64,000 bases of DNA from Antedon mediterranea (GCF_964355755.1 NC_092677.1:28321175-28385174), one strand, 5' to 3'. Positions 20,023 through 63,695 are shown, counted from the stretch's first letter. A program made the numbers and translations. The notes: a model not told the origin generated them from the sequence alone.

Positions 20023-23000
20023 ATGATGGGTTTGAAACTGAGGCAATTCAAGTTGCTGCTTTGGAAGAATTGGATTCTACAGGTTGGTCCTCATTTTATT
20101 TCAGGGTGCTATATTTAATTCAAGTATTTTATTTTCAGGTTCCTCATGGTGCTATATTTGATTTAAATAATCATTGAAAATGCCTGTGCAGTAGTAAATA
20201 AACGTACAGATATAATTTTTGTTTCTTTAAACAATCATTGTTTCTGAGTGTGTGCAGAATATATTTTCCGAGCCAACAGCTATATTATCGTTGGCTGTGA
20301 TGTCATGATTTTAATACTTCTTGTGGAACACACAGAAATCAGTATCTCCATTTCTGTTGGTCTATAATTAGGACTAATTTCCGCAGTAAGAAGAGAAAGA
20401 CCAGTCAATGGCAACAACAATATTTCCTTCAATAATGAAAAAAGTAACTTGTTAATTATCCTTTAAATTTGGAAGGAGAATGATTTATAAGCTGAGTTAA
20501 TTAGGCCTATCGCCCGTATTCTTAAACCGGACTTTAGTCGTAGTTCGAGCTAAAACTAAAAAAATGACGTCATTTTAATTCATAAACCGAACTTCAACTA
20601 AATCACCGACTAAATCAGGCCAACCTCGACTAAATCGAGACGGATTTTGATCGATTTTTTTAGTCCTGGAGGGTGCAGACTAAATGGTCAACTAAATGGT
20701 TTTTAAACGATGTTTATAAAAAACGTAACAGTCATTGAGTTGTTATATTGGCCAGATATTGACGAATGAAATATCTATATTTATATTAGCTTAATTAAAT
20801 ATACATTGGTATATGTTATAATAATGAAAATCATCTTTATTTACAACTGTATACAAATTACATAATTTTCTTAGCGCAAGTCCGACTTCAACTACGTCAC
20901 GCCATAGCGACAATGGCAGATGCGGAAATTCACCACGCGATGGAATGTTTAGTGGGCCTAGCGCTTTCTTGTCACGCTATGAAGTGCGTGGTTCGTCGTG
21001 ATCATACTTTGTTGGGGGCCTAGAAAATATAAAAGTTACCGTACCGCCATGGTTCCTAAATATATTGTGAAGATTTTGTTTGTTGTTAATCAAAAGTACT
21101 TCACTGTTAAATTAATACTGACAGATCTTGTTCTAATAATTAACGATTAAAATTATTTTTCATGTATAGTCCTGATGCGTAAAAAGTGTTGTAAGAAAAT
21201 GGAAAGTGATATCAATGCGCAAAATTTCGTCTGCTCCTCAAATACTCTCTTGTCATTGGCCAATGTATAGCCTTTGTTACCCAGACGTGTGCAACTCGAC
21301 TAAAAGCTCGACTTCATTAAGTCGAACTGCAAACTTCGACTACTTCGTTTTTTAATCGAATTTGAAGTAATAGCTCGAACTACGACTTTTCCAAGTCGAA
21401 CTTCGAACTATGACTAAAGTCCGGTTTAAGAATACGGGCGTATGTCTTTCTGAAAGAAAGAAACACATAACCATACAATGCAGTAGTTCTACATGTCGTC
21501 ATAATAATAATAATAATAATAATGAATTAGTATTTCAACACTAATTTCATTCCTAATTAATATTAAATTATTGAATCGTATCACGATAACGGTAGGTATT
21601 TCATGGAGTTATACACAATTTTTTTCTTCAGTTTAAAGATATATTTTCCACTGAAAAAATAATTTTTTTACATATTTGTATACCTATACTACCTTTCTTA
21701 CATATTGTATTCATATAAAAACATAAATGATAAATAAAAAGTGTAATTCGCTTCAGCATTAAAATTCAAAGTCTGATTTTATTGATCATAAATTTTCATG
21801 TTTTTGTATTCTGTTTGAAATTATAATTGGGGAAAAAACACACATTATATTTAACCTTCCTCTCCAATTTGGTCCATTAACCAATTTGGTCCATTAACTA
21901 ATCCATGTACTACTAAAAATGTAATGAACTTGTTTTAAATTGTAGATCCGTCGACCAATCGGAACCGTCTTTGAAATCCTTCTTCCGCTGGCTTTTACAG
22001 CATTGCTGTTACTGGCAAAGTAGGTATTTTAATAATGACAACATGTTGGAGATGACTGTCACTTTAACTGACATGAATTAAAATGTTTACTTGTTTAAAC
22101 AATATTATTTTAATAATAGATATATAATTTATTAATGATATTTAACTAATAACAATATATACAGTAATACTAATAATTAGAGCTATCAAATGACTCTGTT
22201 TCTAAGAAAATAATTCTGTGAACTGAATTCAAAGTTACTTGGGTTATCAGTATTATTTTTTTTTTAGCGACTATCAGGTAGATTTAGTACTAGAGTAGTT
22301 TAAGAGTATAGGGTTAGGTTAGGTTTAGGTCAGGAGACTTGTACTAAATTGTAAAGTTACTCAGGTTTGGCATCTATTCTTCTATCGGGTAGACTTTAGT
22401 ACCATAGAGTAGTTTACGAGTATAGTCGGGAGACTTTAGTACCATGTTGTACGAGTTTAAGTCAGGAGACTTTAGTACCATATTGTAAGAGTTTAAGTCA
22501 GGAGACTTGTACTAAATTGTAAAGTTACTCAGGTTTTGGCATCTATTCTTCTATCAGGTAGACTTTAGTACCATAGAGTAGTTTACGAGTATAGTCAGGA
22601 GACTTTAGTACCATATTGTACGAGTTTAAGTCAGGAGACTTGTACTAAATTGTAAAGTTACTCAGGTTAGGCATCTATTCTTCTATCGTGTAGACTTTAG
22701 TACCATATTGTAGTTTACGAGTATAGTCAGGAGACTTAGTACCATATTGTACGAGTTTAAGTCAGGAGACTTTAGTACCATATTGTACGAGTTTAAGTCA
22801 GGAGACTTGTACTAAATTGTAAAGTTACTCAGGTTTGGCATCTATTCTTAGGTAGACTTCATTTATAACCGTAGTTACAAGTAATTATAAGCAGGACTCG
22901 TACATTTTGGCCTTCAATTTAATTCAAGTTGAATTTAAGGTATAGCAAAGCTTGTAATACTGATCTATTAAATAAATTATATTTCTGAATTATATTTTTT

Positions 23001-26000
23001 ACTTAGTACTAGTCACGGATTTAAATAATAATAATACAAATTAACCTTTGAGTTGGTTATTTAATATATTATTCATACAATTCTGCATTGAATTTTGCAC
23101 AAAAAAGTGTTTTTTGTTATTTAGTGCAATAGCTCATTAAAAGATTGTACCTTTATACAATTCTGCATTCGATTTTGCACAAAAAAATTAAGTACTTATT
23201 CTGTTATATAATGAAAAAGCCCTAAGGCCATAAATAATCACCATTATGCTTATGATATGATGCATGCAGTTTTTATGGTATATCCATTAAATCTATAAGA
23301 TAGCTGTCTCACATACAACAATAATTTGATAAATACCACACAACAATTAAACTGTATCTCAACTTCAAAGTATTGATTTTCTTTCTAGAATCCTCATTAC
23401 AACACAAGATAAATGCTTTAGTAAGTATGATATTATATTTATGTGACTCTTGCATCCCTTTCACATCAAATAATAACAAAACTCAGGTGATATGGTTGAT
23501 GTGAATACTAAAAAATCAAACACTTCGGAGTCTGGGGGTCAATCACCTGAATTCTCTCTGGCGGGCAAACTCTGGAAATGTGAAAGGTACCAACTGTAAA
23601 CTGAGATGTTTATCCTCTCACGATCAATCATTCAATGCTTTAGTTTTATTCTGAAATACTACTTTAAATATTTGTACAAAAATATAAACAGGTCTAAAAG
23701 ATAATAATTAGTATAAATAAAGTATATAAAATATTATAAATTAAAAGTATTCTGATGATCATCGAGATGTAAACAAACGGAATATTATTTGAATTTGTCA
23801 TTGGTGATTGAATATAATTATTACATAAACATATTTTTTTAGCTACATTTGAAACCATCGAACCATTTGATATCAATTCATATACTGAGGAATATTACTG
23901 TGACCTGGGTCTTTGTGGAAACCTGACATATTTTCCACAAAATGATTTAAGTAAGTTTAATTTTATTTATTATATGGTGTATCTTTGTAAATAGAAACAT
24001 GAATTTGATTGATGAAGTTGTAATCAATGTTGTTGCATAAATGCTGGTTTAATACACAATATGATGATTTAATGAGTTCATAGCTATTTAGTGCATTGTC
24101 ACAGTTAACTGTTAACAAATCTTATGTATCACAAAGGTCTATTTTTCTATATTTCATATTTCATCATAAATTCACTATAGACATTTTATATGAATAATCA
24201 TTACAGCGAAAGCTTTGATGTTAACCGTGTCCGGTTTGATTGGTGTGCCGCTATCACAAAATTTATTCATCTCCGAGGATGCCATGGTAACAACCGTAGC
24301 CGATAATGATCATCTATATTATGGAGGTAAAATAATAATTTAAAAATGTTTTATTTATTTAATTAATAGGCCTTTTTCTAATCTTGTCAGTACTGGGTAA
24401 TAACTAATATATTCTTAATGAAATGTTTGTAAACTGAATTCAATGGATGTTGATAACATCGTATGATTGTCTTAATAATTCTGTATTTTTGATTGTACAG
24501 TATTTTATATCCATATAATTATAATACTCCTATTGTAAAAAGCTGTTGTATTGGCATTGAGGAGACAGCAACTGGCCTGCCAATGGATGTTGAATACACC
24601 ATACGATTGTCTCATAACCTAGTTTTTGTATTTGATTGTACAGTATTTAATATTCAATTATAATGCTACATATTTCCTATTTTGTAACAAAGCTGTTGTA
24701 TTTGACATTGAGGAAACAGCAACTGGACTGCCAATGGATGTTGAATACACCATACGATTGTCTCATAACCTAGCTTTTCAAGAAACCTGGAATACAGATG
24801 ATACATACCCACCATTTCCACAACCTGGACCACGAACTGACAAGTAAGTTTATTTTCCAAACTATTTTCATCAATGTTTTGTTTTTTTCTAAATATGTTT
24901 TAACTAGTGTTAATTCTACCTATTTTAATAATTTCTTATGTTATTATTAAAACATTTAATATTTGAGTCTTTTTTCTTGGTTCACAAATTTCATTTACTT
25001 GTACAGATCACTTGTAAAAACAGCAACTTCATAATTATTTTTCAGTAATTATTACAAACGTTTCATAGCAATTCAATCAGCCATGGATCGTGCCATCTTG
25101 ATTAGCCAATCAGCATACTTTGACCCTGTCTCAGCGGCAAGTACAAGTTTCCAGATGCAGGTAGTTTTATGTACTTAACCATTTACAATTTAAATCCATT
25201 TCAGGTCCATTTTAACCATTTACAATTTAATTGGTTTACAAAGTAATAAATAAATGTTTGTGCTAACATCATAAAAGTCAATTTTTGTTTATATTTGAAA
25301 TTAAATTTTCTTGATACTATACGACTTTGTGATAAAAAATAAATTATGTAATATATTATATTGACAGCAATTTCCGTATCCTGGATACAAGAGTGATGCA
25401 TTCATTTCAACGATTGATTTTCTTCTACCATTGCTGATGGTCTTTGCTTTTATGTACTCAGGAGGCATTATTGTAAAGGTTTGCCATCAATCAATATTAT
25501 TATCACCTAACAAGCAATTGAAACAACTACCAAAACAAAAATTAAAACAAACAACTACAAAGCAACAAAAACATTATTATTATTGATCAACCTATTACTA
25601 ATTTCATTATTTAATTTCAGGAACTTGTGATTGAGAAAGAGACGCGTTTAAAAGAAAGTATGAAAATGATGGGATTGGCTAACTGGCTCCACTGGCTGGC
25701 ATGGTTTGTCAAAACCTATTCATTTCTACTCATTTCAATCATACTCATCGTCATACTTTTTAAGGTTTGTTCATCATTTCAAAATCTGTCCAATAAACAA
25801 GATCTATCGTTCATATCATGAACATGATGTTTCATTAAGAAACACCTTTACTTGTAGCATTATCATCAATATCATCAATCGAATTTTATATCTTGATATT
25901 CTAAGTTCCTTGCACCTACAATTGCTGGGGAACAGTGCGGAGGTGTTTGGATCATCTTCATTGTTTTTTTTGTTGCCATTAATTGGTTGTTTTTGGTTAG

Positions 26001-29000
26001 CCTATTTCCTGCTCAGAGTCTAGATAATTTTAATAATCAACAAACACTCAAAGCGCTCTGATCTTTATGAAATAGCGCTATATAAATGTCGCATTAATAT
26101 AGTATTATTATATTAGTATTATTATAGTATTATTTGCATTCATTTGTCAGGTTTTTTCTTGCTCCTCATGTACTTCATATTTTCTCTCTATAGGCTGGCA
26201 AAGTGCTTGAGCATGGTGATGGGCTGGTTATTTTCATTTTCTTCATGACCTGGATATTAGCCAGCACCATGTGGAGTTTTATGATTAGTGTATTTTTCTC
26301 AAAATCTCGTCTTGGGTTTATCTTTGGTCTACTGATGTGGTTCCTCAGTTATCTGCCATTGTTCATTCTACCCTACGATGAAACATCAGGGTAAGTAGTT
26401 CTACTGATGTGGTTCGTCAGTTATCTGCCATTGTTCATTCTACCCTACGATGAAACATCAGGGTAAGTAGTTCTACTGATGTGGTTCCTCAGTTATCTGC
26501 CATTGTTCATTCTACCCTACGATGAAACATCAGGGTAAGTAGTTCTACTGATGTGGTTCCTCAGTTATCTGCCATTGTTCATTCTACCCTACGATGAAAC
26601 ATCAGGGTAAGTAGTTCTACTGATGTGGTTCCTCAGTTATCTGCCGTTGTTCATTCTACCTTACGATGAAACATCAGGGTAAGTAGTTCTACTGATGTGG
26701 TTCCTCAGTTATCTGCCATTGTTCATTCTACCTTACGATGAAACATCAGGGTAAGTAGTTCTACTGATGTGGTTCCTCAGTTATCTGCCATTGTTCATTC
26801 TACCTTACGATGAAACATCAGGGTAAGTAGTTCTACTGATGTGGTTCCTCAGTTATCTGCCATTGTTCATTCTACCTTACGATGAAACATCAGGGTAAGT
26901 AGTTCTACTGATGTGGTTCCTCAGTTATCTGCCATTGTTCATTCTACCCTACGATGAAACATCAGGGTAAGTAGTTCTACTGATGTGGTTCCTCAGTTAT
27001 CTGCCATTGTTCATTCTACCCTACGATGAAACATCAGGGTAAGTAGTTCTACTGATGTGGTTCGTCAGTTATCTGCCGTTGTTTATTCTACCTTACGATG
27101 AAACATCAGGGTAAGTAGTTCTACTGATGTGGTTCCTCAGTTATCTGCCATTGTTCATTCTACCCTACGATGAAACATCAGGGTAAGTAGTTCTACTGAT
27201 GTGGTTCCTCAGTTATCTGCCATTGTTCATTCTACCCTACGATGAAACATCAGGGTAAGTAGTTCTACTGATGTGGTTCCTCAGTTATCTGCCATTGTTC
27301 ATTCTACCCTACGATGAAACATCAGGGTAAGTAGTTCTACTGATGTGGTTCCTCAGTTATCTGCCATTGTTCATTCTACCCTACGATGAAACATCAGGGT
27401 AAGTAGTTCTACTGATGTGGTTCCTCAGTTATCTGCCATTGTTCATTCTACCTTACGATGAAACATCAGGGTAAGTAGTTCTACTGATGTGGTTCGTCAG
27501 TTATCTGCCATTGTTCATTCTACCCTACGATGAAACATCAGGGTAAGTAGTTCTACTGATGTGGTTCGTCATTTATCTGCCATTGTTCATTCTACCTTAC
27601 GATGAAACATCAGGGTAAGTAGTTCTACTGATGTGGTTCGTCAGTTATCTGCCATTGTTCATTCTACCCTACGATGAAACATCAGGGTAAGTAGTTCTAC
27701 TGATGTGGTTCGTCAGTTATCTGCCATTGTTCATTCTACCTTACGATGAAACATCAGGGTAAGTAGTTCTACTGATGTGGTTCCTCAGTTATCTGCCATT
27801 GTTCATTCTACCCTACGATGAAACATCGGGGTAAGTAGTTCTACTGATGTGGTTCCTCAGTTATCTGCCATTGTTCATTCTACCCTACGATGAAACATCA
27901 GGGTAAGTAGTTCTACTGATGTGGTTCCTCAGTTATCTGCCATTGTTCATTCTACCTTACGATGAAACATCAGGGTAAGTAGTTCTACTGATGTGGTTCG
28001 TCAGTTATCTGCCATTGTTCATTCTACCCTACGATGAAACATCAGGGTAAGTAGTTCTACTGATGTGGTTCCTCAGTTATCTGCCATTGTTCATTCTACC
28101 CTATGATGAAACATCAGGGTAAGTAGTTCTACTGATGTGGTTCGTCAGTTATCTGCCATTGTTCATTCTACCTTACGATGAAACATCAGGGTAAGTAGTT
28201 CTACTGATGTGGTTCCTCAGTTATCTGCCATTGTTCATTCTACCCTACGATGAAACATCAGGGTAAGTAGTTCTACTGATGTGGTTCCTCAGTTATCTGC
28301 CGTTGTTTATTCTACCCTACGATGAAACATCAGGGTAAGTAGTTCTACTGATGTGGTTCCTCAGTTATCTGCCATTGTTCATTCTACCCTACGATGAAAC
28401 ATCAGGGTAAGTAGTTCTACTGATGTGGTTCCTCAGTTATCTGCCATTGTTCATTCTACCTTACGATGAAACATCAGGGTAAGTAGTTCTACTGATGTGG
28501 TTCCTCAGTTATCTGCCATTGTTCATTCTACCCTACGATGAAACATCAGGGTAAGTAGTTCTACTGATGTGGTTCCTCAGTTATCTGCCATTGTTCATTC
28601 TACCTTACGATGAAACATCAGGGTAAGTAGTTCTACTGATGTGGTTCCTCAGTTATCTGCCATTGTTCATTCTACCTTACGATGAAACATCAGGGTAAGT
28701 AGTTTATAATACAGATATATGATACAGACAAATAAGATTTTTTATAGCAGTATATTTTAAGCAAGTAAGGTTATTCATTATCTTATATTTTTTCTTCTCT
28801 GTTTCAGCTCTACTAAAACTCTATGTTGTTTCTTGCCTAACTCTGCAATGGGCTATGCAATGAATTGTATTCTACGATATGAGAGTAGTGAGGAGGGAAT
28901 TCAGTGGAGCAACATCGGTAGAAGTCCCGCGACTGGAGATTCTTTCAATTTAGGAAACTGTTTTCTTATGCTTTTACTTGATAGCTTCATCTTTTTCATC

Positions 29001-32000
29001 ATCATGTGGTAAGTATTATTTTTGAGTGGAATACCTTCAGATGTTTTTAATGTATCAAGTCTCCATAGGTTTAGTAGTTATAGCTTGTCTATTCATCTAT
29101 TTCTAAAACAACTCAGAAACATAAAAGCATAGATCGTGTATACGAGTACTTACTATGAAATAGTCAATAGAAGTGATTATCATTTTAGGTATGTAGAGCA
29201 AGTGTTTCCAGGCAAATATGGTATTCCACAACCAATTAATTTTCCTTTTAAGAAGTCATACTGGTGTGGAAATGTAGTGCATGTTTCTCCTGATGATGAA
29301 GCACAGGTACTGTATGCTGTTTCTCTTACTTAATTAAATGTTTAAGTCAAATAAAATTTAATACTTTTATAGAGTTTCTATACTCTGCTGTTATGATACA
29401 TGTTACTTCTTTTGCAATTTTGTACAGATAGCCATGAATAACATCGATAACAAAAATCATGAAAGTGCCCCAAACATTGAAGTTGGTATTGATATTAAGA
29501 ATCTGCGAAAGGTTTACAAGGTAAGTAAAATTACATTTTACAAGGTTTACAAGGTTAGGTTTACAAGGTAAGTAAAATTACATTTTACAAGGTTTAGGTT
29601 AGGTTTACAGTAAAATTACATTTTAGTGATATTACTATTCATACATTAAATACTGAACTCTATGATTTAAAAAAATATCTTCGTTTAGAGTTCAGTTGGG
29701 AAAAAACTTGCTGTGGACGACCTCTCACTGAAGATGTACAAAGGTCAAATAACATCTCTTCTTGGTCACAACGGAGCTGGTAAAACTACTACAATGTCCA
29801 TCTTGACCGGTTTATTTCCACCAACTTCAGGCTCAGCTACTATCAATGGCAAGAGTATTGTGACAGACATTCAATCTGTACGGTCAAGTCTCGGCTTATG
29901 TCCACAGCACAATGTCTTGTTTGATCGTCTGACGGTTAAAGAACATCTGGATTTCTTTATTAATCTAAAGGTAATCAACAATTAACTATTAGTAACCATT
30001 TATATTATACAGTCACGTGTCAATAAAAAATCATTATTAACAAATTTGTGCTTTGTTTTATAGGGTAAAAGTGGTGCAGAAGCCAATGCTGAAGTAAGGT
30101 CAATGATAGAAGACTTACAACTGGTTGACAAGACTAACACAGCATCCAGTTCACTGTCAGGTGGCATGAAACGAAAACTGAGGTAAACTTCTTCTCCATT
30201 TATCTACAAATGCTGATTTTAACTCTGATTTTATAGAAACGCAATTATTCCATTAAAAAAATATGTATTTGTCACATATTCTGTATTTTAGTTGTGCGAT
30301 TGCTTTGATTGGAGGATCAGAAGTTGTGATTCTAGATGAGCCTACCTCTGGCATGGATCCATATGCACGTCGGGCTACTTGGGATTTGTTATTAAAGTAC
30401 AAAGCAGGAAAGACCATGGTACTCACTACACACTTCATGTAAGTAATGTATACAATATTTTAATTATCTTCAGATAATCTTTTTCAAATGTAACAGGTCC
30501 GCAATTGTATATATGTTATAAATACAGATTTTCGCACCGCTGCTTTAGCCAGCTATGTCCGAAGAGGATATACTCATTAAGAAGCTTTATCATCGTAGTA
30601 GCTATAGTTCTAAGGCCGACAGTTTTGGGAATTTGTAAACTCGACTATAATTTATAGGTCCCAGCTGCTGGACCCAAAAAACGTATAAAGCGAGTCTATG
30701 AGGGCTCACGGTTGAACGATTTTGCATTCTCGCTCTTTGATTGGTTGGCGAGAATCAACAGACTGAGGAAGAATTTTCTCACTTGTACCGCCGTAAAGTC
30801 ACGTTGTCTAGAGGGTATTCAGTTGCATGCCTACAGGTTGGGCTCACACACACACAGCACATTAAAGTTCAAAATTTACCATTTTTAAATGCCATTTTTT
30901 AATTAGTAGATTAATATTTTGTTGGATAGGTACACATGTCTTCTTTCAAATTGTTGAAAATTAGCAGAAATATCAATTATTCAATGAAATACAACCAGAT
31001 TACTAACACCCAACAAAATGGCCATGATGTGATTTATAATTAAATAGCTATGTTAGATTTTGTGTATTTTTGCGATTAACCAACATATTTTTATTTTGTT
31101 ACACGTTTCCATGGCAACAAAATGTTCATAAATTATTAAAAATTGTGTATTTATAGTACAATTAACTAGTGAAAAAATTGGCATAATGTGATTCTTAATT
31201 AAAGAACTATCTTTGATTTGTATGTATTTTTGCAATTAAAGAACATCTTTTAATAATTAATCATTTAATATATCTGAAGAAAGAACAATGATTAATTTTA
31301 AAATGTCGAGTGGCGTTTTTTGTAAGAAATATTTCTTATTTACTTTAGGGACGAGGCCGATTTGTTGGGAGATCGTATTGCCATCATGGCACACGGACAA
31401 CTACTCTGCAGCGGCAGCTCTCACTTTCTTAAAAACCGATATGGAGTTGGTTATCACATGACACTGGTTAAGAATGAAAATTGCCAAGTTGATCAACTTA
31501 CAAAAATTATTCAAGATTATGTACCTGGAAGTTATCTGGAGTCAAATATTGGTGCAGAGCTTGCTTATATTTTACCAGGGGACAGTACCTCACAGTTTCA
31601 ATCGCTTTTTGAAAATGTTGAAGGTACTGTATACTTTATGTTGAAGGTACTGTATACTTTATGTTGAAGGTACTGTATACTTTATGTTGAAGGTACTGTA
31701 TACTTTATGTTGAAGGTACTGTATACTTTATGTTGAAGGTACTGTATACTTTATGTTGAAGGTACTGTATACTTTATGTTGAAGGTACTGTATACTTTAG
31801 CCGATAATGTAGCATTATCATACACACCAGATGCTCCACAATAATATAGTATATTTACATTTCTCTTTCTTTGTGTTGCAGCAAAGCGAACAAGTCTCGG
31901 CGTTGAAAGTTTTGGTGTGTCCATCACAACTTTAGAAGAAGTATTCATGAAAGTTGGTGAGCAAGCAGAGGCAAAAGCGAATGGAACTGCCAACAATGAC

Positions 32001-35000
32001 GAGGGTGAGGGCGCTGTTGCATCCACCACGATGCAGAATATTCAGAAAGCAGAAAAAGCTGTTAATATCTCACAACTTGAAACCAGAAGAGAAGGTACTT
32101 AAAATAAATAAATTTGCATAATGTTCTAAACTCAAGTAATATGTAGGAATTTTTATTTAAACCTATCTAAAACTGGATCTAACGTTTGTTTCTTTTTTTT
32201 TCAGATTTGCTTAGTGGGTTAGCTTTAAAAGCTCAGCAGTTTAAAGCTATGTATATTAAGCGTTTTCTCAACAGTAAACGTGACAAAAAAGCTGTCATTA
32301 TTCAATTCTTTTTCCCACTTTTGTTCATTTTTCTTGGATTATTGATTATTCTACTTTCTGGGGGTAGTGCGGCTACTGATGATCCTAAGTTGGAACTAAG
32401 TTTGATTAAGTTGAATGAGGCTGAAGACTTAAATCATCGGGCATATTATGCTGACTTTACTGGCAATGACGCAGTCAAGATATTTCAGGTCATTTTCTTA
32501 TACTACTATAACACTACACAATTGAAAATAAGTTGTTGCAATGAGGAATACCATTGATAATGATTTAGCATAAAATACTCCTTATTCTTAATATCTTAGA
32601 ATGTTGAAAGTTACTTGGTCAGCCTAAAATTTTTAGAAGAAAGTGTAGAAAATATAGAAGGTACAGTACAGACTCTGATGAATGAAAACAGCTATGGAAA
32701 GGTCAAAGGTGAAGACATACCGAGTCCAATGGCACGATACTGTTGTTTGTACAACTTCATCATTTTGAATGAGGAGTGTTCTTCTTGGGTGAGTCCTTTG
32801 TCAATCTTATTGATCATACAAAAAAAATGAAAAGAGTTTTTTTCAAGTGTCCTTTGTCACTCTTATTGGTCATAAATTATTATATGACAATGACGGAAAA
32901 AACAATTGCACAAACATTCATATAATCAGCAAATTGTTTATTTTAGATCCGTAATCAGCCTGAAGATGCATGCAAAGACTATCCTGAATATTCCTACACA
33001 AACTGCCCATCTTGCTATAATTCTACAGAGAAGTAAGTAATATTCATTGACACTGTTTAACATTGGCTTACTTATATTACAATAAACTTTTGTTTAATTT
33101 GCTAGGTTATATGGTTCATGTCCAGTTGGTGCACAACCCAGCATTCTGTCTGACCCAAACACTTACTTTCAAGAGAGCGTCTTGGAAGAAGATGCTGACA
33201 ATGAACCTAACTTTTTCAATGAACTTGTGGCAGGTTTTGTTTCTGTTAACGCTACCTTTGATGCACAGCAAGTTGTTCCAAATCTTTATGCAATTTTCAA
33301 TAATAGTTTAATTGTAAGTATTTGATAGGAATGAGATGTGTACCAACAACCATATTTTCTCTGTATGAAAATAATATCATGGTGCAGTACACCACAACAC
33401 TGCTTTCTAAATCAATCCAGGGAAAAGTGAAATTCAATCTAATCATTTACTGATTTGTGACAGGAAGACAAACATTTTGAAACAAAACTGATTTACCTAA
33501 AAATGTAATTTGTGTTATGCTAATTTTCATATAAATATGTTTATATTTTCAGGCAAATGTGTCATTTGTTAAGAAACTAGAAGAAGTGAATTTTTATGAG
33601 CTTGCATTAAATGTTAGTACTGGGACTCTAGTGACAGCCTGGTACAGTAATGAGGTAAAATGTTCTACTTTTTAATGGAGACAAACACTAATGGTTAAGA
33701 TGAAATGTTATTATATCAGCATTACTGTTTGGAAATAAGATGTTATTATATCAGCATTACTGTTTGGAAATAAGATGTTATTATATCAGCATTACTGTTT
33801 GGAAATAAGATGTTATTATATCAGCATTACTGTTTGGAAATAAGACGTTATTATATCAGCATTACTGTTTGGAAATAAGATGTTATTATATCAGCATTAC
33901 TGTTTGGAAATAAGATGTTATTATATCAGCATTACTGTTAGGAAATAAGATGTTATTATATCAGCATTACTGTTAGGAAATAAGATGTTATTATATCAGC
34001 ATTACTGTTTGGAAATAAGATGTTATTATATCAGCATTACTGTTTGGAAATAAGATGTTATTATATCAGCATTACTGTTAGGAAATAAGATGTTATTATA
34101 TCAGCATTACTGTTAGGAAATAAGATGTTATTATATCAGCATTACTGTTAGGAAATAAGATGTTATTATATCAGCATTACTGTTAGGAAATAAGATGTTA
34201 TTATATCAGCATTACTGTTAGGAAATAAGATGTTATTATATCAGCATTACTGTTTGGAAATAAGATGTTATTATATCAGCATTACTGTTTGGAAATAAGA
34301 TGTTATTATATCAGCATTACTGTTTGGAAATAAGATGTTATTATATCAGCATTACTGTTAGGAAATAAGATGTTATTATATCAGCATTACTGTTTGGAAA
34401 TAAGATGTTATTATATCAGCATTACTGTTTGGAAATAAGATGTTATTATATCAGCATTACTGTTAGGAAATAAGATGTTATTATATCAGCATTACTGTTA
34501 GGAAATAAGATGTTATTATATCAGCATTACTGTTAGGAAATAAGATGTTATTATATCAGCATTACTGTTAGGAAATAAGATGTTATTATATCAGCATTAC
34601 TGTTAGGAAATAAGATGTTATTATATCAGCATTACTGTTTGGAAATAAGATGTTATTATATCAGCATTACTGTTAGGAAATAAGATGTTATTATATCAGC
34701 ATTACTGTTAGGAAATAAGATGCAAATTGCAGGCATACTATAGTATACTTCTTTTTCAACCTTTTTTAATATCATGACATTTGAAAATTAAAATTCAAAG
34801 CATGCCATACAACATTTGTTTGTAATTTACATGGGCACCATACAGTACATAATTACAAGCATACCATACCTTTAGCCCAAGCATGCCATACAACATTTGT
34901 TTGTAATTTACATGGGCACCATACAGTACATAATTACAAGCATACCATACCTTTAGCCCAAGCATGCCATACAACATTTGTTTGTAATTTACATGGGCAC

Positions 35001-38000
35001 CATACAGTACATAATTACAAGCATACCATACTTGTTTTTTTTTCAAATTATACCCATACCATATGTTTTTGTTTTCACATTACAGGCATACCATACCTCT
35101 GTGCAAGTTCTTAATGCTGCTTCTAACATGATACTGAAGTCTTTTACTAGCGATGAATACAGCATTACAACTTACAACTATCCCCTGCCTCGGAATGTAA
35201 CAGCTCAGGTATTTTATCCTCAGTTTAAGTACTATTTTTAAAACATATTATTGAAAGTATACATATCTAGTATGTAGTAAAATTGACTTTTTATTGTGAA
35301 TACAAGATACTAAGTCTACTTTATTGTAAAAACTTTACATTTTTGAGATATGTTTTGTACCATAGTAGATCATTAAATAATACATAGTGATATATATTTA
35401 AATAAATTTCATGCCATATACAGTGTTGAAAATCTGAAACGTTTTGTCAAAATTGTTTTCTGTGTCAGTCTAGCCCTTCCTGATCTGCTAATAATAATAA
35501 TATCTGAGTGTAATGGGTGGGTTGAGTCTTGTATAATTGAGTTTTCTTAAGTATAAACATTTTAAAATGAACATGTTTTCAGTTAGTATTTTTATGTTAC
35601 ATAGGCAGAGGAAGCAGCTTCAAGTGAGAGTGCATTTGGTCTGTCAATCTTGGTGGTATTTGGTATGGCTTTTCTTTCAGCTAGTTTCATCGGTTTTGTT
35701 GTTGGTGAGAGAGAAAACAAGGTGACTATACTTTCTACCTTTGTTTTCACAGTAGTTGAGTTCCTGCATCATACATACTATTACTTTTATTACATTTAAT
35801 TATCAATCTTTATTATCAACCTAAACAAATATATTTTCTCAATTAAATGAAGTTAACACAACAGCAACAACTCAATTTCCTCTCTCATTGAAAGCACTTC
35901 TTGAAGTAAGCATAAAAACATATTGTTGTATTTTGTAGGCAAAGCATCTTCAGTTTGTGAGTGGTGTTGATCCACTGAGTTATTGGGGTGCTACCTTTGT
36001 ATGGGATGTGTGTAATTTTGCCATTGTCTTTGTTGGTATCATCATCATGTTTGCAGCATTTAATCTAGATGCATACGGAGGTTCTAATCTTGGAACAGTT
36101 GCTTTACTCTTTGTAAGTTTCAATTTTGTATAAAAATTACGAGTGAGAATCAAAATCTTAAGGCATTTAATGAAAATGCAGACTGTCTTAAAAGAAGAAA
36201 ACTATTCATCAGAACTGTAATCAAAGCCTAGAGTACTTATATACCTACTAAACAGTTATATTTAAATGAGGCAATAATTTACAGAATAAAGACATCATGG
36301 ATATCAATCCACCACTGATATTATGTCATTTGTTTTGTTTTCTTTGTAGCTGTTATTTGGTTGGATGGCTATTCCATTTATCTATAGTGCAGCTTTTATG
36401 TTCAAGACTCCAGTCAATGCCACAGCTCTTACAATATTCCTCCTTGCTATTCTAAGCATGGTAAGTAACGTTGTTCAAGACTCCAGTCAATGCCACAGCT
36501 CTTACAATATTCCTCCTTGCTATTCTAAGCATGGTAAGTAACGTTGTTCAAGACTCCAGTCAATGCCACAGCTCTTACAATATTCCTCCTTGCTATTCTA
36601 AGCATGGTAAGTAACGTTGTTCAAGACTCCAGTCAATGCCACAGCTCTTACAATATTCCTCCTTGCTATTCTAAGCATGGTAAGTAACGTTGTTCAAGAC
36701 TCCAGTCAATGCCACAGCTCTTACAATATTCCTCCTTGCTATTCTAAGCATGGTAAGTAACGTTGTTCAAGACTCCAGTCAATGCCACAGCTCTTACAAT
36801 ATTCCTCCTTGCTATTCTAAGCATGGTAAGTAACGTTGTTCAAGACTCCAGTCAATGCCACAGCTCTTTCCTCCTTGCTATTCTAAGCATGGTAAGTAAC
36901 GTTGTTCAAGACTCCAGTCAATGCCACAGCTCTTACAATATTCCTCCATGCTATTCTAAGCATGGTAAGTAACGTTGTTCAAGACTCCAGTCAATGCCAC
37001 AGCTCTTACAATATTCCTCCTTGCTATTCTAAGCATGGTAAGTAACGAATGTAAAGCAACTTACTGTACCTATTTAGTATGTTTGATATTATATTATTTT
37101 TAATAGATTAAGGTGGTGAAAATTAGGTAAATAAAAGTAATTTGAATTTGTTTGTGTTTCAACAGTTTACAATTCTTACTATCTTTGTCCTGAGTATTCC
37201 TGGACTTGGATTGGAGAGCACAGCCAATGCGTTAGACTATGTGTTTTGTCTTATTCCAACACATTGCTTAGGACGAGCATTCTCTGTATTAGGTGATAAT
37301 GATGGTTTGAGACGGATATGCACTGCCAGTCAAGAGTGAGTTTATAAACAAAACATTTATTTATTAATTATTATTTTAGAAATGTGGATTTTTGGCTACA
37401 CCACTGTGTAGCCTTTATTGGAAACAAGTACTGCTATGATTGTGTTTTTGTAAACTTTTGGTTTTCTAAATAGACTTGAGTATTGATATTGTTGTATAAT
37501 TAGTTTGTGTATATTGTTTTTATATTATGATATTAGAGCTATGATAAATTGTCAAATGTCAGGATATGTCTATCAAGATAGCAACTTAGCCTGGGACAAG
37601 CCTGGTATTGGTACTTATTGTTTGTACATGTTTATTGGTGGAATTGTGTTCATCATTCTCACATTGCTTATTGAGGTGAGTTAAATATTATTTTCAGAGG
37701 TAGGCATTTTATATTTATATACATTAAGTACTTATATTTTATATTTATATGGATCATCATTTGTTTGCATTTTGCAAAAAAAAAGGTATGATAAATGAAA
37801 AATTTGATAATGTATTAATTAATTTAAAAAATGATAATGTATTAATAGACTTCTGTTTTTGTTATCAGGTCAACTTCTTTATCCCTTCTCGTTCAGCTTC
37901 TGTGCTCAAAGGGCACGTTTCAAATCCAGATGTAAGTTTTATTTATAATGGTTACATTACAGACAGCCTTTATAATTTGTGTGATGTATGTTATACATTC

Positions 38001-41000
38001 TACTGTGGCATATTTTAACGATATAACTTGTTATTTTGTTTCTAGGATTCAGATGTTGCAGATGAGAGACAAAAAGTTTCTGAGCTTGATCCTAAAAACA
38101 GTGATTCTGCTGTAATTTTACAAAATCTTTCCAAGGTAAAAGATTAGATGAGAAATTTAACTCATTTAATTTTAAATGTTGATTCATTGAGTAATCCTAA
38201 CCCAGAATCACAAATTTAATAATATTGAATACTATGTTAAAATACTGTATATATACCTTTCAGGTGTACAGGAAGAAGCCAGCTCCTGCAGTGGATCAAC
38301 TATGTCTTAACATACCCAAGGGTCAATGCTTTGGTCTTCTTGGAGTTAATGGTATGTACCTGTATATATTAACTCAATACAACAGCTTTAAATTTTATTA
38401 TGTATTATTAATATTGAAAGTCTGACATTTGTCATGTTATAAATTATTGTATTAGGTGCTGGCAAGACTACAACATTTGGAATGTTGACAGGTGATCTGA
38501 GCATTACAGCAGGAACAGCTTACATGGATGGATTTGACATCCAAACACAGAGGAAACTCGTAAGTCTATGTTGATTGAAAAAGATTTAAACTATGATGCA
38601 TTTTGTTTGTACCTCATTGTTAAAAGGACAATAAAAAATATTCAAACTTTGTATAATTCAAGACACCTTTTCAAGTCGAATTTTTCTTGTTTTATCAAAC
38701 AATAATTCATATATTTTGTCAACAGGTTCAGCAAAGAATTGGATACTGCCCTCAGGTTAGTGAACTTTCTTTCTTGTTGTAAAAGATTCCTGATATTGTA
38801 TTCATCACTACATGATAACAAATAATAGTTTTAAAGAATTGCTTCTTGAGTTCTACGGCAAATTGATACATGATACTGTTTCTTTTTTTAGTTTGATGCT
38901 TTGCTTGAGCGGCTAACAGGACGTGAAGTATTGACAATGTTTGCTCGTCTTCGTGGTATTCCAAATCATAACATTGAAAATGTTGTTGAAACTACCGTCA
39001 CACATTTGTCTCTTAATAAATGGGCAGATAAACTGTGTGGTGATTATAGGTATGTTGTCACTGATAAACTGTGTGGTGATTATAGGTATGTTGTCACTGA
39101 TAAACTGTGTGGTGATTATAGGTATGTTGTCACTGATAAACTGTGTGGTGATTATAGGTATGTTGTCACTGATAAACTGTGTGGTGATTATAGGTATGTT
39201 GTCACTGATAAACTGTGTGGTGATTATAGTTATGTTGTCACTGATAAACTGTGTGGTGATTATAGGTATGTTACCAGTCAATCAAATGCTCTGATACTCC
39301 TGCTCTAGTAAACAATCTTAAGATATTTTTTATGTGTATGATGATACAAAAAATAAATTTATTTTAAACATTTGTTTAAGTTATAATAATTTTTTTTATA
39401 GTGGTGGAAACAAGAGGAAACTTAGCACTGGTATTGCTTTAGTTGGGAACCCACCAATTGTTTTCCTGGTAAGAATGGTTACATAATATTATAACTAACT
39501 CTTCACAGATTTACGATGTTTGTGTATAAGTATGAACAACCAAGTAGGACAAATATATTGAAATTATTCCAGATACAATAAGAAATATTTTTATCCAACT
39601 GAACTTCAGAAAACTTGTCTAGTGCGGTAGTTTCTTGTCAGTAGAGTGGATTTTTAATTAAGAATTAATTATGAGAATGAAATATTACATCTGGCACATT
39701 TAATTCTTTAGGATGAGCCTACGTCTGGAATGGACCCAACCGCACGACGATATCTATGGAATGCTCTGACATCTGTCATGAAAGGTGGACGCTCCATTGT
39801 GCTAACATCACATAGGTAGAGTTTATTTTAAATTAGCTATACTGATTGATATAATCTGCTTCCCAAGTTTGTAATTGAAACTAATAATCTATCTTGTTAC
39901 AGTATGGAAGAGTGTGAGGCCTTATGTACCCGTTTGGCTATAATGGTAAACGGACAATTTAAATGTCTAGGGAGCACACAACATCTTAAAAGCAGGTATA
40001 CTATTATTTGGCCTTGTTGCTTCTTCCATATCTCATATGAATGAGACATGTGAGACATTCTGTTAATTTTCATTAAGGACTGAATAAATTGGAAGCATAA
40101 TATTCATGAGTTAAACATGTATCTACTGTATGCATTCAATGACTGACATTGTTTTGTAGGTATGGCAAGGGCTATACAATGGTATCTACTGTATGCATTC
40201 AATGACTGACATTGTTTTGTAGGTATGACAAGGGCTATACAATGGTATCTACTGTATGCATTCAATGACTGACATTGTTTTGTAGGTATGACAAGGGCTA
40301 TACAATGGTATCTACTGTATGCATTCAATGACTGACATTGTTTTGTAGGTATGGCAAGGGCTATACAATGGTATCTACTGTATGCATTCAATGACTGACA
40401 TTGTTTTGTAGGTATGGCAAGGGCTATACAATGGTTGTTAAAATGGAAGATGGTGTGCCCATGGATGGAATTAAATCATTCATTAATGGAACATTTGAAG
40501 GTGCAGTTCTTTTGGAGGAACATCAGGTAAACTATGTCATAATACAGACCTTCAGTTCTATTAGTTCATTCAGTTTATGAAAGGTTTTGTATTTAATAAC
40601 AATATTACAATACAATGTTATTCAGGGTGTATTACAATATCAAGTGGAAAATAGTGATCTTAGCTGGTCTTACATATTTGGTAAATTAGAAAGTAACAAA
40701 CAGGAGTTGAGAATGGAAGATTACAGCGTCAGTCAGACAACACTAGAACAGGTAAGACATTTGACAGTTATTGTCTCCAACATGTGTATACCATGCTCTT
40801 TAGTATCAGGCTTTTCTTCTTTCATGTTTTTATACCAAAATAAAAAAACAAAGAGTGGGTTCTTAAATTATTACTTTCATTTGTTTAAGGTGTTTATCAA
40901 TTTTGCAAAAGAGCAGCACACAGACGCAGCATTTTCCAGAAAATTAAACAAGGCACATCACACAACATACGTAGAAGTTCCATCAACTGGGGCTAATCTT

Positions 41001-41054
41001 CGTAGGGAATCAACCAGGAGAAGTTTACGATCAGGACCACAATCACCAAAATAA
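20023..41054 (+). CDS. ABCA3: ABCA-subfamily full transporter, paralog B (ABCA3-like); complete, about 41 coding exons
   Basis: First coding exon 20023-20082 [20 protein letters not shown] (classic ABCA LLLWKN start; not in the ORF track), then 21946-22019, 23389-23420, 23843-23950 and on, with the same exon structure as paralog A. NBD1 at 29689-31623, NBD2 at about 38264-39995, TAA at 41054. Orthology uncertain. Confidence 0.93.
20511..21440. mobile_element. 930-bp MITE with about 38-bp TIR and 3-bp TSD (PIF/Harbinger-like)
   Basis: cgcccgtattcttaaaccggactttagtcgtagttcga ... tcgaactatgactaaagtccggtttaagaatacgggcg, flanked by TAT/TAT; many subterminal cgact/actaaa motifs. Confidence 0.85.
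22270..22858. repeat. Complex higher-order tandem repeat (period roughly 150-180 bp, built from about 33-40-bp subunits)
   Basis: Recurring agactttagtacca, caggagacttgtactaaattgtaaagttactcagg and ggcatctattcttctatc blocks. Confidence 0.85.
24482..24773 (+). repeat. Diverged duplication (about 145 bp) of an intron end, acceptor and 5' half of an ABCA-B exon
   Basis: aag|ctgttgtattggcattgaggagacagc...ctcataacctag (24543) vs the real exon aag|ctgttgtatttgacattgaggaaacagc...ctcataacctag (24693). Confidence 0.9.
26329..28704 (+). repeat. 72-bp tandem array, 33 copies, of an ABCA-B exon 3' end plus splice donor
   Basis: Unit ctactgatgtggttcctcagttatctgccattgttcattctaccctacgatgaaacatcagg|gtaagtagtt; 2376/72 = 33; the first copy is coding ([21 protein letters not shown]). 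Confidence 0.97.
29511..29624 (+). repeat. Irregular duplication of an ABCA-B splice donor
   Basis: ggtttacaag|gtaagtaaaattacattt with donors at 29521 and 29568, plus partial copies. Confidence 0.85.
30531..31333. mobile_element. Insertion of about 800 bp (probable transposon) in an intron otherwise alignable between the paralogs
   Basis: The paralog A intron 7549-7670 aligns to both flanks (tatgttataaatac ... tttactttag); the intervening sequence is absent from A. No clear TIR or TSD, boundaries approximate. Confidence 0.55.
31615..31799 (+). repeat. 23-bp tandem array, 8 copies, spanning an ABCA-B splice donor
   Basis: Unit atgttgaag|gtactgtatacttt; single copy in paralog A at 7937-7959. 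Confidence 0.95.
33706..34722. repeat. 35-bp intronic minisatellite, about 29 copies
   Basis: Unit taagatgttattatatcagcattactgtt(t/a)ggaaa. Confidence 0.95.
34798..35033. repeat. 81-bp tandem repeat, about 3 copies
   Basis: aagcatgccatacaacatttg... recurs with an 81-bp period. Confidence 0.9.
36399..37047 (+). repeat. 73-bp tandem array, 9 copies, of an ABCA-B exon 3' end plus splice donor
   Basis: Donors ATG|gtaagt at 36461, 36534, 36607, 36680, 36753, 36826, 36892 (copy with a 7-nt deletion), 36965 and 37038; single copy in paralog A (donor at 11550). Confidence 0.95.
39027..39272 (+). repeat. 36-bp tandem array, 7 copies, spanning the donor before the NBD2 signature exon
   Basis: Unit gataaactgtgtggtgattatag|gtatgttgtcact ([12 protein letters not shown]); single copy in paralog A at 15350-15385. 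Confidence 0.95.
40119..40435 (+). repeat. 63-bp tandem array, 5 copies, spanning an ABCA-B splice acceptor
   Basis: Unit gtatctactgtatgcattcaatgactgacattgttttgtag|gtatggcaagggctatacaatg; exon starts possible at 40160, 40223, 40286, 40349 and 40412 (the last is the productive one). Confidence 0.95.
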
Positions 41055-42764: not shown

Positions 42765-43583
42765 TGTTATGCGCGATTTGAACGATTTGCGCAATTTGAA
42801 ATTGCGCAAGGATTTTCTTGCGCAATTTAAAATTGCGCAAAAAATTCCTTGCGCAATTTGAATTGAAACATGTGTTTCAAATTGCGCAAGCAACGTATTA
42901 AATTGCGCAAGTAATCTGCAAATTGCGCAAGGTTTTTCGACAGATTGTGAAATCATGCACACCCATATTTTTTAGTAATTTCTAAGAATGATTCAAAATT
43001 AAAGATAATATCGCATTTCCTTACCCTCCCGGGAGCTACCCTCCCGGGAGCTTCCCTCCCGAATTTTTTTTTCCAAATAAAAAAAATCTCGAATTCCCAA
43101 TGGTTCTATAAAATACCATATTCACACATAATATGAGGAGAAGGCATAAATAAATACCAATAGTATAATATAATAATTTCAATTCAAATATCAGTACTGT
43201 ACTAATGACGATTAATAAGACTAATAACGATTGGATTTTTTTTAGAAACAATAATTATTACGAATTATTAGACGTCTACTATTTAACTTAAAAATTAATT
43301 TCGGTACCATTCTCAACAACAAATGAGTACAATAATAAAAATAACAAACAGTTCGTTTTCAAATTGCGCAAAGGTGTCATATTGCGCAAGAACTATCTTG
43401 CGCAATTTACAAATTGTGCAGCGCAATTTGAAATTGCGCAAGGATTTTCTTGCGCAATTTCAAATTGCGCAAGTTGATTGCGCAATTTAATATTGCGCAA
43501 GAAAATCCTTGCGCAATTTCAAATTGCGCAAGAATTCTTTGCGCAATTTAAAATTGCGCAAATCGTTCAAATCGCGCATAACA
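42765..43583. mobile_element. 819-bp non-autonomous DNA transposon with TGT...ACA ends and 4-bp TSD (Ginger-like); arms made of TTGCGCAA repeats
   Basis: tgttatgcgcgatttgaacgatttgcgcaattt ... aaattgcgcaaatcgttcaaatcgcgcataaca, flanked by ccta/ccta. Confidence 0.85.
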
Positions 43584-52337: not shown

Positions 52338-53365
52338 TTAATAATAATAATTTAGGGTATTTGTATAGCGCCAGAATCAACTAAACCGTAGTAAAAATCA
52401 AAGGCGCTTATATTGGATGTTAAAAAGATGCGTTTGATTTAGTAAAATGACGAGGAAGAGAATTCCATAGAGAAGCAGCAGAGAACATAAAAGACTTTTG
52501 TCCATAAGATTTGGTGTTAATTCTAGGAACAAGTACTGTAGTAGGTTTTGATCAGCCGAACGAAGACAAGCAAGAGGGGTGTAGGAGAAGAAGATCAAGG
52601 AGATAAGTAGGTTGTTTAAGAAGTAGCGCTTTATATGTTAGTAAAAGGATCTTATATTTTATACGGGAGTCAATAGGTAGCCAATGGGGGTTATATATAA
52701 TAGGAGATATGTGTTAGGATCTTCTAGTAAGAGTTAGAATACGTGCAGCAGTGTTCTGGAGACGTTGAAGTCGATTTATTAAAGATTTCGGTAGGGCAAA
52801 AAAAGAGAGTTGCAATAATCAAGGCGAGAAGTGACAGAGGCATTTATTAATGTAAAGGCAGTACGCTTTGACAGATACTTTTGAAAGCAAGCAATGTTAC
52901 GTAGATGGAAGTTAGTAGTTTTTGTAACATGACTTATATGTTTGTTGAAAGATAAAAATTCATCAAAATAAATCCCAAAATTTTTAACAAAAGGTGATGG
53001 AAAAATTGTACAGGAATTAAAAGAAATCGAGGGAATATTGAATTTGGAACGTATTTATTTGTTTGGTGGAAAAAATGATAAATTCGGTTTTATAATTGTT
53101 AAGCAAGAGCATGTAAGATGCTAGCCAGGATGATATTTTAGAGAGAAAACTGTCAAGTCGTTTAGTTATATCATGATATTCAGAAGGATTAAAATCGACA
53201 TAGCTGCAAGTCATCAGCATATAGGTGGTAGTGTAAATTGTATTCTTTAATAATTTCAGTGAGAGGAGAAATATACTGAGAAAAAAGCAAGGGCCCAAGG
53301 ATAGAACCCTGTGGAACTCCGCATTCAAGGCTCTTAGGAGCAGATCTAGTATCATTTATTTTATC
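52338..53365 (-). mobile_element. 5'-truncated, frameshifted L2/CR1-group LINE (reverse transcriptase remnant)
   Basis: Minus-strand [13 protein letters not shown] and [12 protein letters not shown] motifs, LNNYKTEFIIF in another frame; 3' end gcgctatacaaat...(TTA)n. Confidence 0.9.
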
Positions 53366-63550: not shown

Positions 63551-63695
63551 TAGCTAATTACGGTAATTTAAATTTCAATTTTGTAGACATTTAAATACTG
63601 TAAATTGCTATTTAAACTTTAATTTTAAGTGAGGGATGAACTCAGTAAATCAGAAATACTGTATATACTAATTTGTTAATTTTACAGTATTACAA

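What the first reader, a model, noticed from the sequence alone, without database searches (positions are those of the whole stretch)
26329..28704. 33 x 72-bp array hides a potential in-frame 42-nt cassette exon whose variants are all synonymous
Seen: each unit parses as gtaagtagttctactgatgtggttcctcag (30 nt: GTAAGT donor, CTGAT branch-like motif, pyrimidines, CAG) plus a 42-nt phase-2/phase-2 segment encoding [14 protein letters not shown] with no stop. All five variant sites I found in the 42 nt are third-position silent: CCA/CCG (26646), TTC/TTT (27084), CCC/CCT (many copies), TAC/TAT (28104), TCA/TCG (27828). The two changes that are non-silent in the original frame (CTC/GTC; AG to AT at 27572, destroying one acceptor) lie in the 30-nt part. 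Simple use of a later donor would include an in-frame TAA. Inference: either the copies act as micro-exons (30 nt is too short for a normal intron, but skipping units gives 102, 174 nt etc.), or the array exchanges with the coding first copy and so stores selection-filtered alleles. Five sites is a small sample and the branch motif is unusually close to the AG.
Basis: partly seen in the sequence, partly recalled or inferred. Interest (0 to 1): 0.82.

Follow-up and report, generated by a model that had tools for sequence, protein, structure and literature searches.

The report
Repeated exon end, feather star ABCA3
In a feather star's lipid-transporter gene, the end of one exon and its splice signal are repeated 33 times into the next intron; the spliced RNA found and the annotated protein carry only one copy, so the repeats are likely an ordinary intron repeat of a kind known from lancelet and human genes, and their slight excess of silent changes is likely chance rather than a sign of hidden mini-exons.

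Summary
The array is real: 33 x 72 bp, being the last 63 coding bases of an ABCA3-like exon plus 9 intron bases, in a gene NCBI labels Antedon mediterranea. All seven variant columns are as described. The cassette reading is not supported. 'In frame, no stop' is automatic for a copied exon end (16 of 69 exons here would give it). The unit's AG scores like a decoy (0.1 bits; 2 of 79 true acceptors lower). The shortest intron here is 73 nt. One spliced contig joins 56 nt of exon end, including the supposed acceptor, straight to 28808, with no 42-nt repeat joint. The RefSeq protein has one copy; a second would exceed the spacing in all 112 homologs. Contigs drop rare forms and do not show which donor is used. 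The silent excess is modest: 5 of 7, p 0.02-0.04, or 0.09-0.17 over five arrays; exon-derived variants in three neighbouring arrays are all non-silent (0 of 4). This is a known kind: lancelet 'mirages', human F7 intron 7. The live residue is exchange with the coding copy filtering the array (about 20%).

The parts
20023..41054 (+). ABCA3-like transporter gene 2 (41 coding exons; RefSeq XP_071958196.1, labelled Antedon mediterranea; P0121, 1821 aa)
   Evidence: exact exon-by-exon match of P0121 to the window
26194..26390 (+). Coding exon whose 3' end was amplified; aligns to human ABCA3 358-413 and ABCA4 722-777 (membrane helices)
26328..26390 (+). Copy 1 of the repeat: the last 63 coding bases of the exon (21 codons), the only copy in the annotated protein
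26328..28704 (+). Tandem array, 33 x 72 bp: 63 exon-derived bases plus the first 9 intron bases; 7 variable columns, 10 unit types, no indels
26391..28807 (+). Phase-2 intron of 2417 nt holding 32 extra units, each ending at a strong donor copy (10.3 bits, near the top of 79 true donors)
26421..26462 (+). First of the 32 candidate 42-nt pseudo-cassettes (31 of 32 keep the AG); the AG is part of the Leu-Ser codons and scores 0.1 bits or less as an acceptor
27572..27572 (+). AG>AT change in one unit (Ser>Ile in the exon frame)
28695..28807 (+). Unique 113-nt intron tail from the last donor copy to the strong true acceptor (11.2 bits)
28808..29008 (+). Next coding exon; joined to the exon end in a spliced 529-nt contig of run X1
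5166..5713 (+). Matching exon (5166-5362) and 351-nt phase-2 intron of the tandem paralog gene 1 (XP_071958195.1), same exon length, no array

Best explanation
The array is an intron minisatellite made of copies of an exon end plus its splice donor, and it is likely spliced out whole from the first donor as one 2417-nt intron, with its silent-variant excess likely due mainly to chance. Shown: the anatomy, the host gene, an array-free paralog with the same exon end, recombinant unit types, and a spliced contig that carries one exon end joined to 28808. Inferred: a 72-bp duplication across the exon/intron border was harmless because the extra copies fell behind the first donor; slippage and unequal exchange then expanded and shuffled it; the first donor is preferred, as shown for human F7; the internal AG is ignored because it is ordinary coding sequence without a U-rich tract; rare use of later donors would give a stop and likely decay.
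For: Anatomy. RefSeq isoform X1 has one copy of the 14 residues and the direct junction. Paralog has the same exon end and phase with no array. Unit acceptor 0.11 bits, against a median of 8.1 for 79 true acceptors (2 of 79 lower); 48% of 381 intronic decoy AGs score as high; G+C 0.50 in the tract against a mean of 0.20 and a maximum of 0.44. Shortest of 79 introns 73 nt. 16 of 69 exons of 70 nt or more have an in-frame YAG 12-60 nt before the donor. Run X1 contig: 56 nt of unit (columns 16-71, including 15 nt before the supposed cassette) joined GT..AG to 28808, depth 19.7; no 42-nt go-back joint. 8 of 14 long arrays in the two genes straddle a splice site (5.1 expected, P 0.085), and the exon-derived substitutions in the three other multi-copy arrays that have any are 0 silent of 4 (Gln>Leu, Val>Leu, Leu>His, Gly>Asp in 2 copies), plus a 7-nt deletion and a 3-nt insertion. 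Pooled 5 of 11 silent, P 0.16. Four-gamete pattern in 5 column pairs. Known precedents.
Against: 5 of 7 silent is nominally unlikely (P 0.019-0.037; 0.008 given five transitions; 0.004-0.008 if indels at the rate of other arrays are counted), and this 2.3-kb array has no indel at all. The two non-silent changes both fall outside the 42 nt. The X1 contig starts inside the unit and the exon body 26194-26311 has no X1 cover, so first-donor use is not directly shown. X1 also holds the unspliced 72-nt loop at similar depth (15.5), and RefSeq isoform X2 starts at the unit's Met: both fit pre-mRNA or mis-mapping, but also later-donor use. Only one RNA-like run was available, as contigs, and it is RNA by guess.
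Confidence: 0.68

Rival explanations
1. Same splicing, but the intronic copies exchange sequence with the coding first copy by gene conversion or unequal crossing-over. Haplotypes whose arrays carry harmful replacements are purged when such a variant is copied into copy 1, and tolerated coding alleles leak into the array, so untranslated copies show protein-level purifying selection.
For: All four variants present in more than one unit are tolerated in the exon frame: three silent, one Leu>Val (Val in 25 of 112 homologs). Units are recombinant. No variant in the nine donor bases and no indel in 32 units (0.9 variants expected there, so weak). The col-46 variant recurs in the array-form contig of another sample. 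X1's spliced contig differs from the last unit at 2 of 56 letters where the window's coding copy differs at 1, so its exon end differs from the window's coding copy; the letter was not printed. Toy forward simulation: silent share 0.40-0.47 overall and 0.43-0.54 among shared variants with free exchange, against 0.24-0.27 without selection.
Against: 3 of 4 shared variants silent has P 0.065-0.10. Even with coupling the simulation gave 70% or more silent in only 2-7% of samples (autocorrelated, parameters guessed), a small gain over 2-4% by chance. With copy 1 exchanging at a tenth of the rate the share fell to 0.31-0.36, and edge units are reported to be left out of homogenisation in lancelet mirages (PMC3087553 passage). 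The 63-bp acceptor array carries Gly>Asp in 2 of 5 units. No array variant was seen in a coding copy.
Confidence: 0.22
2. Units are used as 42-nt cassette exons (skipping units to make introns of 102 nt or more), giving ABCA isoforms with the 14 residues repeated, and selection keeps the cassette silent-only.
For: Parse is possible: strong donor, CAG, phase 2/2, no stop; 5 of 5 variants in the 42 nt silent (P 0.002-0.011 before correction for the chosen boundary); 31 of 32 AGs intact; 102 nt is within the intron range here. Exon recruitment from mirages has been proposed (PMC3087553 passage).
Against: Decoy-grade acceptor, lowered further by the C>G change in 8 units (-0.5 bits). No 42-nt joint. 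One copy in both RefSeq isoforms. Spacing from the conserved Pro (108 of 112) to the downstream Asn column is 22 here, 21-28 in 110 of 112 homologs, at most 34; one cassette makes 36 and repeats the end of a membrane helix. With 32 redundant copies, selection on single-copy variants (2 of the 5 silent sites) would be very weak (inference). No database protein with the repeated segment turned up (all 66 hits have one matched stretch), a weak negative.
Confidence: 0.04
3. The array is a splice rheostat: a share of transcripts use a later donor, keep one or more units with the TAA, and are degraded or restart at the unit's Met, so array length tunes ABCA level.
For: 32 donor copies as strong as the true one. 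RefSeq isoform X2 (P0003) begins at the unit's Met and is an exact suffix of X1. Array-form contig in X1 at depth 15.5. Precedents: the two nearest pseudo-donors are used in human CBS and 6-16 (PMC1557585 Introduction); one-unit retention and length-linked exon skipping in human ABCA7 (PMC5954066 passages).
Against: The X2 transcript structure was not seen; a start on the last unit is what read mis-mapping would also give (inference). A many-copy intron sums to such depth from a trace of pre-mRNA or DNA. F7, LMNB2 and PDGF use only the first donor. Nothing shows regulation or benefit.
Confidence: 0.05
4. Assembly artefact.
For: None beyond the near-identity of the units.
Against: Units differ in a non-periodic pattern; unit depth 21-48 times the flank in three DNA runs and both flanks join the unit; the tandem form is also in another sample.
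Confidence: 0.01

Closest known systems
Lancelet 'mirages': minisatellite-like tandem duplications of exon-intron boundaries in Adh3, globins BflGb6/BflGb9, TnC (PMC3087553, passages found by term; PMC3902484, one passage; the original Canestro 2002 paper was not held, title only)
   Same: Units span an exon boundary and carry splice signals; unit size within the reported 10-72 bp (Adh3) to 160 bp; several such arrays per gene; regular splicing reported as undisturbed; unit turnover.
   Different: Crinoid host; 33 units, more than the 3-6 in the globins; a nominal silent skew, which the passages seen do not discuss; length polymorphism not measured here.
Human exon/intron-boundary VNTRs: F7 intron 7 (37 bp, 5-9 copies), LMNB2 (100 bp), PDGF (81 bp), CBS intron 13, 6-16 (PMC1557585, abstract and Introduction)
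   Same: First unit holds the authentic donor, followed by identical pseudo-donors that are mostly silent.
   Different: F7's unit has only 4 exon bases; here 63 of 72 are exon-derived, so an internal AG can mimic a cassette. First-donor use was tested by experiment there and is inferred here.
Human ABCA7 intron 18 VNTR (PMC5954066, passages found by term)
   Same: ABCA-family gene with a VNTR that begins at a donor; one-unit retention gives a stop.
   Different: 25-bp purely intronic unit, different intron, independent origin; measured effects on splicing and expression there, none here.
Internal tandem repeats that alter exon-intron structure in human segmental-duplication paralogs (PMC2812944, Results read in full)
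   Same: Minisatellite at an exon boundary present in one paralog and absent in the other.
   Different: Those cases have transcript support for a changed structure; here the structure seen is unchanged.

Membership tests
Exon-boundary minisatellite ('mirage'; F7-type VNTR) | Head-to-tail units that span an exon/intron boundary and repeat the splice site | tested here: met
Exon-boundary minisatellite ('mirage'; F7-type VNTR) | The edge unit is the authentic exon end; the rest lie in the intron | tested here: met
   RefSeq X1 maps copy 1 as exon end; array-free paralog has the same exon end; later donors give a stop
Exon-boundary minisatellite ('mirage'; F7-type VNTR) | Normal mRNA is made from the authentic (first) site | tested here: inconclusive
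   One spliced contig joins an exon end to 28808 without a cassette, but it starts inside the unit and cannot name the donor
Exon-boundary minisatellite ('mirage'; F7-type VNTR) | Unit turnover by unequal exchange or conversion | tested here: met
   All four gametes in 5 column pairs, 10 unit types interspersed; recurrent mutation not excluded
Exon-boundary minisatellite ('mirage'; F7-type VNTR) | Copy-number polymorphism between alleles | not testable with these tools
   Only collapsed contigs of two samples
Tandem cassette or micro-exon array | Each unit has a competent 3' splice site | tested here: not met
   0.11 bits, level of decoys, on a matrix from 79 acceptors of the same two genes; a score, not an assay
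Tandem cassette or micro-exon array | Introns between neighbouring units of spliceable length | tested here: not met
   30 nt against a minimum of 73 in 79 introns; skipping units (102 nt and up) would be long enough
Tandem cassette or micro-exon array | Transcripts or proteins that include the cassette | tested here: inconclusive
   None in one run's contigs, two RefSeq isoforms or three protein searches; contigs drop rare forms
Tandem cassette or micro-exon array | Purifying selection confined to the cassette | tested here: inconclusive
   5 of 5 silent inside, 0 of 2 outside; P 0.09-0.17 after allowing for five arrays
ABCA transporter (host gene) | Full-length two-TMD, two-NBD ABCA architecture and similarity to solved ABCA1/3/4/7 | tested here: met

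The most novel reading that the evidence does not exclude
The 32 untranslated exon copies are under protein-level purifying selection at one remove: they keep overwriting the single coding copy by conversion or unequal exchange, so arrays loaded with harmful replacements are purged and the intron becomes a shuffled store of silent and tolerated alleles that can feed back into the protein. I found no paper that says this of exon-boundary minisatellites in searches.
Probability: 0.2. Interest if true: 0.5.

Novelty: new member of a known kind. Interest (0 to 1): 0.2.

Why it matters
As it stands it extends lancelet-type 'mirages' to a crinoid, where they are dense (8 splice-site arrays in two adjacent genes), and it warns that such arrays can mislead gene models (a RefSeq isoform starts inside the unit). 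If the silent skew proved general, intronic exon copies would be a measurable case of selection acting on untranslated DNA through exchange with a coding copy, and this genome would offer many arrays to test it. If cassette use were found, it would be exon birth from a minisatellite caught in the act.

Tried and rejected
No whole genome is held, so no genome-wide count of arrays was possible. No RNA holder was listed on record; X1 is RNA by guess, treated as such because it shows five GT..AG joints at annotated introns. X1 has no cover of 26150-26311: not used as evidence. The variant tables of the read-laying runs did not print most unit variants (13 rows hidden, none listed), so whether array variants segregate in the coding copy is unanswered. 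Protein searches for a cassette-bearing form found none: 1 candidate, no hit among shorter proteins; 3 hits of 16 candidates, all known; 66 single-stretch hits. Paralog 1 as donor of the variants: rejected, its exon is only 72% identical and differs at many more sites. CpG decay as the cause of the skew: explains only column 58; columns 40 and 70 create a CpG in the minor allele (sequence). Branch-point distance: uninformative, since a CTRAY motif lies within 60 nt in only 14 of 79 true introns, twice as close as here or closer, and the motif is Leu-Leu-Met coding sequence. Recursive splicing at AG|GT points: one extra G separates the CAG from the GT, so no zero-length exon (sequence). Enrichment of arrays at splice sites: 8 of 14 against 5.1, not significant. 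Two simulation settings with Nc 20 gave no samples with 6-8 variable columns. Canestro 2002 and Zhuo 2007 were not held. Searches for crinoid or Antedon repeat papers gave nothing relevant (listings only). Earlier notes of the scan: none for this genome or sequence. No structure or complex prediction was run.

Full report
What is there. The array runs 26328-28704, 33 copies of 72 bp with no indels. Each unit is the last 63 coding bases of the exon 26194-26390 plus the first nine intron bases, so 33 identical donors follow each other at 72-base steps. There are ten unit types, interspersed, and five column pairs show all four gametes, which points to exchange between units. One unit is covered 21-48 times deeper than the flank in three DNA runs of one sample (ratios). 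The tool warns that this is no copy number and the sample may be the assembly's source, but it rules against an artefact.

Host gene. The window holds two tandem ABCA3-like genes. A nucleotide-binding exon matched two NCBI proteins labelled Antedon mediterranea at 100%, and both map exon by exon onto the window. Gene 2 (P0121, 1821 aa, isoform X1) carries the array in a 2417-nt phase-2 intron and has the 14 residues once, joined directly to the exon at 28808. Gene 1 has the same exon end, the same phase and a 351-nt intron without array. The exon aligns to membrane helices of human ABCA3 (358-413) and ABCA4 (722-777); that the unit is the end of TM5 is my recall of ABCA4 numbering, not a call result.

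Is the cassette more than a parse? A copied exon end is in frame and free of stops behind any AG that lies a multiple of three from the donor; 16 of 69 exons of 70 nt or more in these genes have such a YAG 12-60 nt before the donor. The AG here is part of Leu-Ser codons, and gene 1 has an AG at the same place. On a matrix from the 79 introns of the two genes (a few junctions may be placed a base or two off), the unit acceptor scores 0.11 bits; the true median is 8.1, only 2 of 79 score lower, and 48% of 381 intronic decoy AGs score as high. The true acceptors on either side score 10.1 and 11.2. The shortest intron is 73 nt, so neighbouring units cannot be joined, although skipping one (102 nt) could be. 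In 112 homologs (112 of 121 stored proteins; the query and 8 that did not cover the region were left out; many are redundant vertebrate sequences) the spacing from the conserved Pro to the downstream Asn column is 21-28 in 110, at most 34; it is 22 here and would be 36 with one cassette.

RNA. Five runs hold the region, none on record as RNA. X1, another sample and study, behaves as RNA: it shows five GT..AG joints at annotated introns. Laid on the last unit and the downstream exons, a 529-nt contig (depth 19.7) has 56 nt of unit, columns 16-71, joined to 28808. That piece includes 15 nt upstream of the supposed cassette, so the exon spliced to 28808 is not a 42-nt cassette. No joint going back 42 appears. 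Limits: these are contigs of one run, which drop rare forms; the contig begins inside the unit and the exon body has no X1 cover, so it cannot tell the first donor from a later one. X1 also has the unspliced 72-nt loop (depth 15.5) with the column-46 variant, and RefSeq isoform X2 starts at the unit's Met. Trace pre-mRNA or DNA summed over many copies and read mis-mapping explain these most simply, but later-donor use is not excluded.

The silent skew. Other arrays of the window give 16 transitions, 16 transversions and 13 indels (the indel count includes some edge artefacts of my unit splitting). The expected silent share is 0.27-0.32. Five or more silent of seven over the 63 coding-derived bases has P 0.019-0.037; five of five in the 42 nt has P 0.002-0.011, but that boundary was chosen after looking. 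Over five arrays with variants it is 0.09-0.17. The three other multi-copy splice-site arrays with exon-derived substitutions give 0 silent of 4, plus a 7-nt deletion and a 3-nt insertion; pooled 5 of 11, P 0.16. A two-copy 151-bp duplication at 24488 shows two silent and two other differences and was left out of the pooled count. So the skew is particular to this array and modest. It is not nothing: all four shared variants are tolerated in the exon frame (Val occurs at the Leu position in 25 of 112 homologs; Ile at the Ser position in 0 of 112), and X1's exon end differs from the window's coding copy by at least one unprinted letter. A toy forward simulation with guessed parameters shows that exchange with a selected first copy lifts the silent share to 0.40-0.54, though 70% or more is still reached in only 2-7% of samples, and the effect mostly fades if copy 1 exchanges at a tenth of the rate. 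I put this coupling at about 0.2.

How it most likely works. A 72-bp duplication across the exon/intron border left the first donor intact and put the extra copy in the intron, so it was harmless (inferred). Slippage and unequal exchange expanded and shuffled it (recombinant units shown; mechanism inferred). The spliceosome likely takes the first donor and the strong acceptor at 28807, and ignores the weak internal AG. Eight of 14 long arrays in the two genes straddle a splice site, about what survival of harmless duplications predicts (5.1 expected, P 0.085), so this is a habit of the genome rather than a device of this exon.

What is known. Lancelet 'mirages' are tandem duplications of exon-intron boundaries, 10-160 bp, reported not to disturb splicing, with exon recruitment proposed as a hypothesis (PMC3087553, passages; PMC3902484, one passage). 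Human F7 intron 7 has a 37-bp VNTR whose first unit spans the boundary and whose later donors stay silent through 5'-to-3' choice; LMNB2 and PDGF behave alike, while CBS and 6-16 also use the two nearest copies (PMC1557585, abstract and Introduction). Human ABCA7 has a donor-anchored VNTR with one-unit retention and length-linked exon skipping (PMC5954066, passages). Boundary repeats that differ between paralogs are catalogued in PMC2812944 (Results). No supplements were read; those of PMC3087553 hold unit alignments that may bear on silent versus replacement variants in mirages. Earlier notes of this scan describe the same layout in rays, a chimaera-type genome and sea urchins; they are unchecked AI notes, not evidence.

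Verdict. Observation confirmed; cassette interpretation not supported; exchange-with-copy-1 interpretation open. New member of a known kind. Interest 0.2; 0.5 if the coupling proves true.

Noticed in passing
window 8668-9064, 24488-24778, 29510-29609, 31615-31799, 36399-37047, 39027-39272, 40119-40435: Seven more arrays in the two ABCA genes straddle a donor (five) or an acceptor (two), with units of 23-151 bp; the 73-bp array also hides an in-frame AAG 54 nt before its donor.
   Followed up: yes
window 29685-30530 vs 6785-7649 and 31336-31638 vs 7658-7960: The first nucleotide-binding block of the two paralogs is 93-99% identical, introns included, while neighbouring exons are 70-80% identical: likely recent gene conversion between the tandem genes.
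   Followed up: no
window 28639-29008 (protein P0003): RefSeq isoform X2 (XP_071958198.1) begins at the Met inside the repeat unit and is an exact suffix of isoform X1; later-donor transcripts or mis-mapped reads could cause it.
   Followed up: partly
window 25930-26096: A short high-copy element in the intron just before the exon: many divergent contigs, depth up to about 200 times the flank in DNA runs, single in this window.
   Followed up: partly
window 44099-44326 and 46653-46851: Two arrays of a 16-bp unit in inverted orientation about 2.3 kb apart, as at the ends of some DNA transposons (the likeness is recalled); a similar pair of 15/31-bp arrays lies at 42787-42862 and 43421-43561.
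   Followed up: no
window 59134-60949: A 53-bp array interrupted by an AT-rich insertion of about 240 nt that ends in short TAAA repeats.
   Followed up: no
window 49290-50315, 52782-53428, 63672-63998: Open stretches that look like a GPI mannosyltransferase (PIG-M) gene followed by a 64-bp array at 50504-51337, minus-strand reverse-transcriptase fragments of a LINE, and a cytochrome b5-like domain (names recalled, not searched).
   Followed up: no
window 28710-33690: The four DNA runs hold only 0.80-0.84 of the sampled words and show differing alleles at a few intron sites, which suggests a heterozygous or different animal with roughly 1% differences (rough inference).
   Followed up: no
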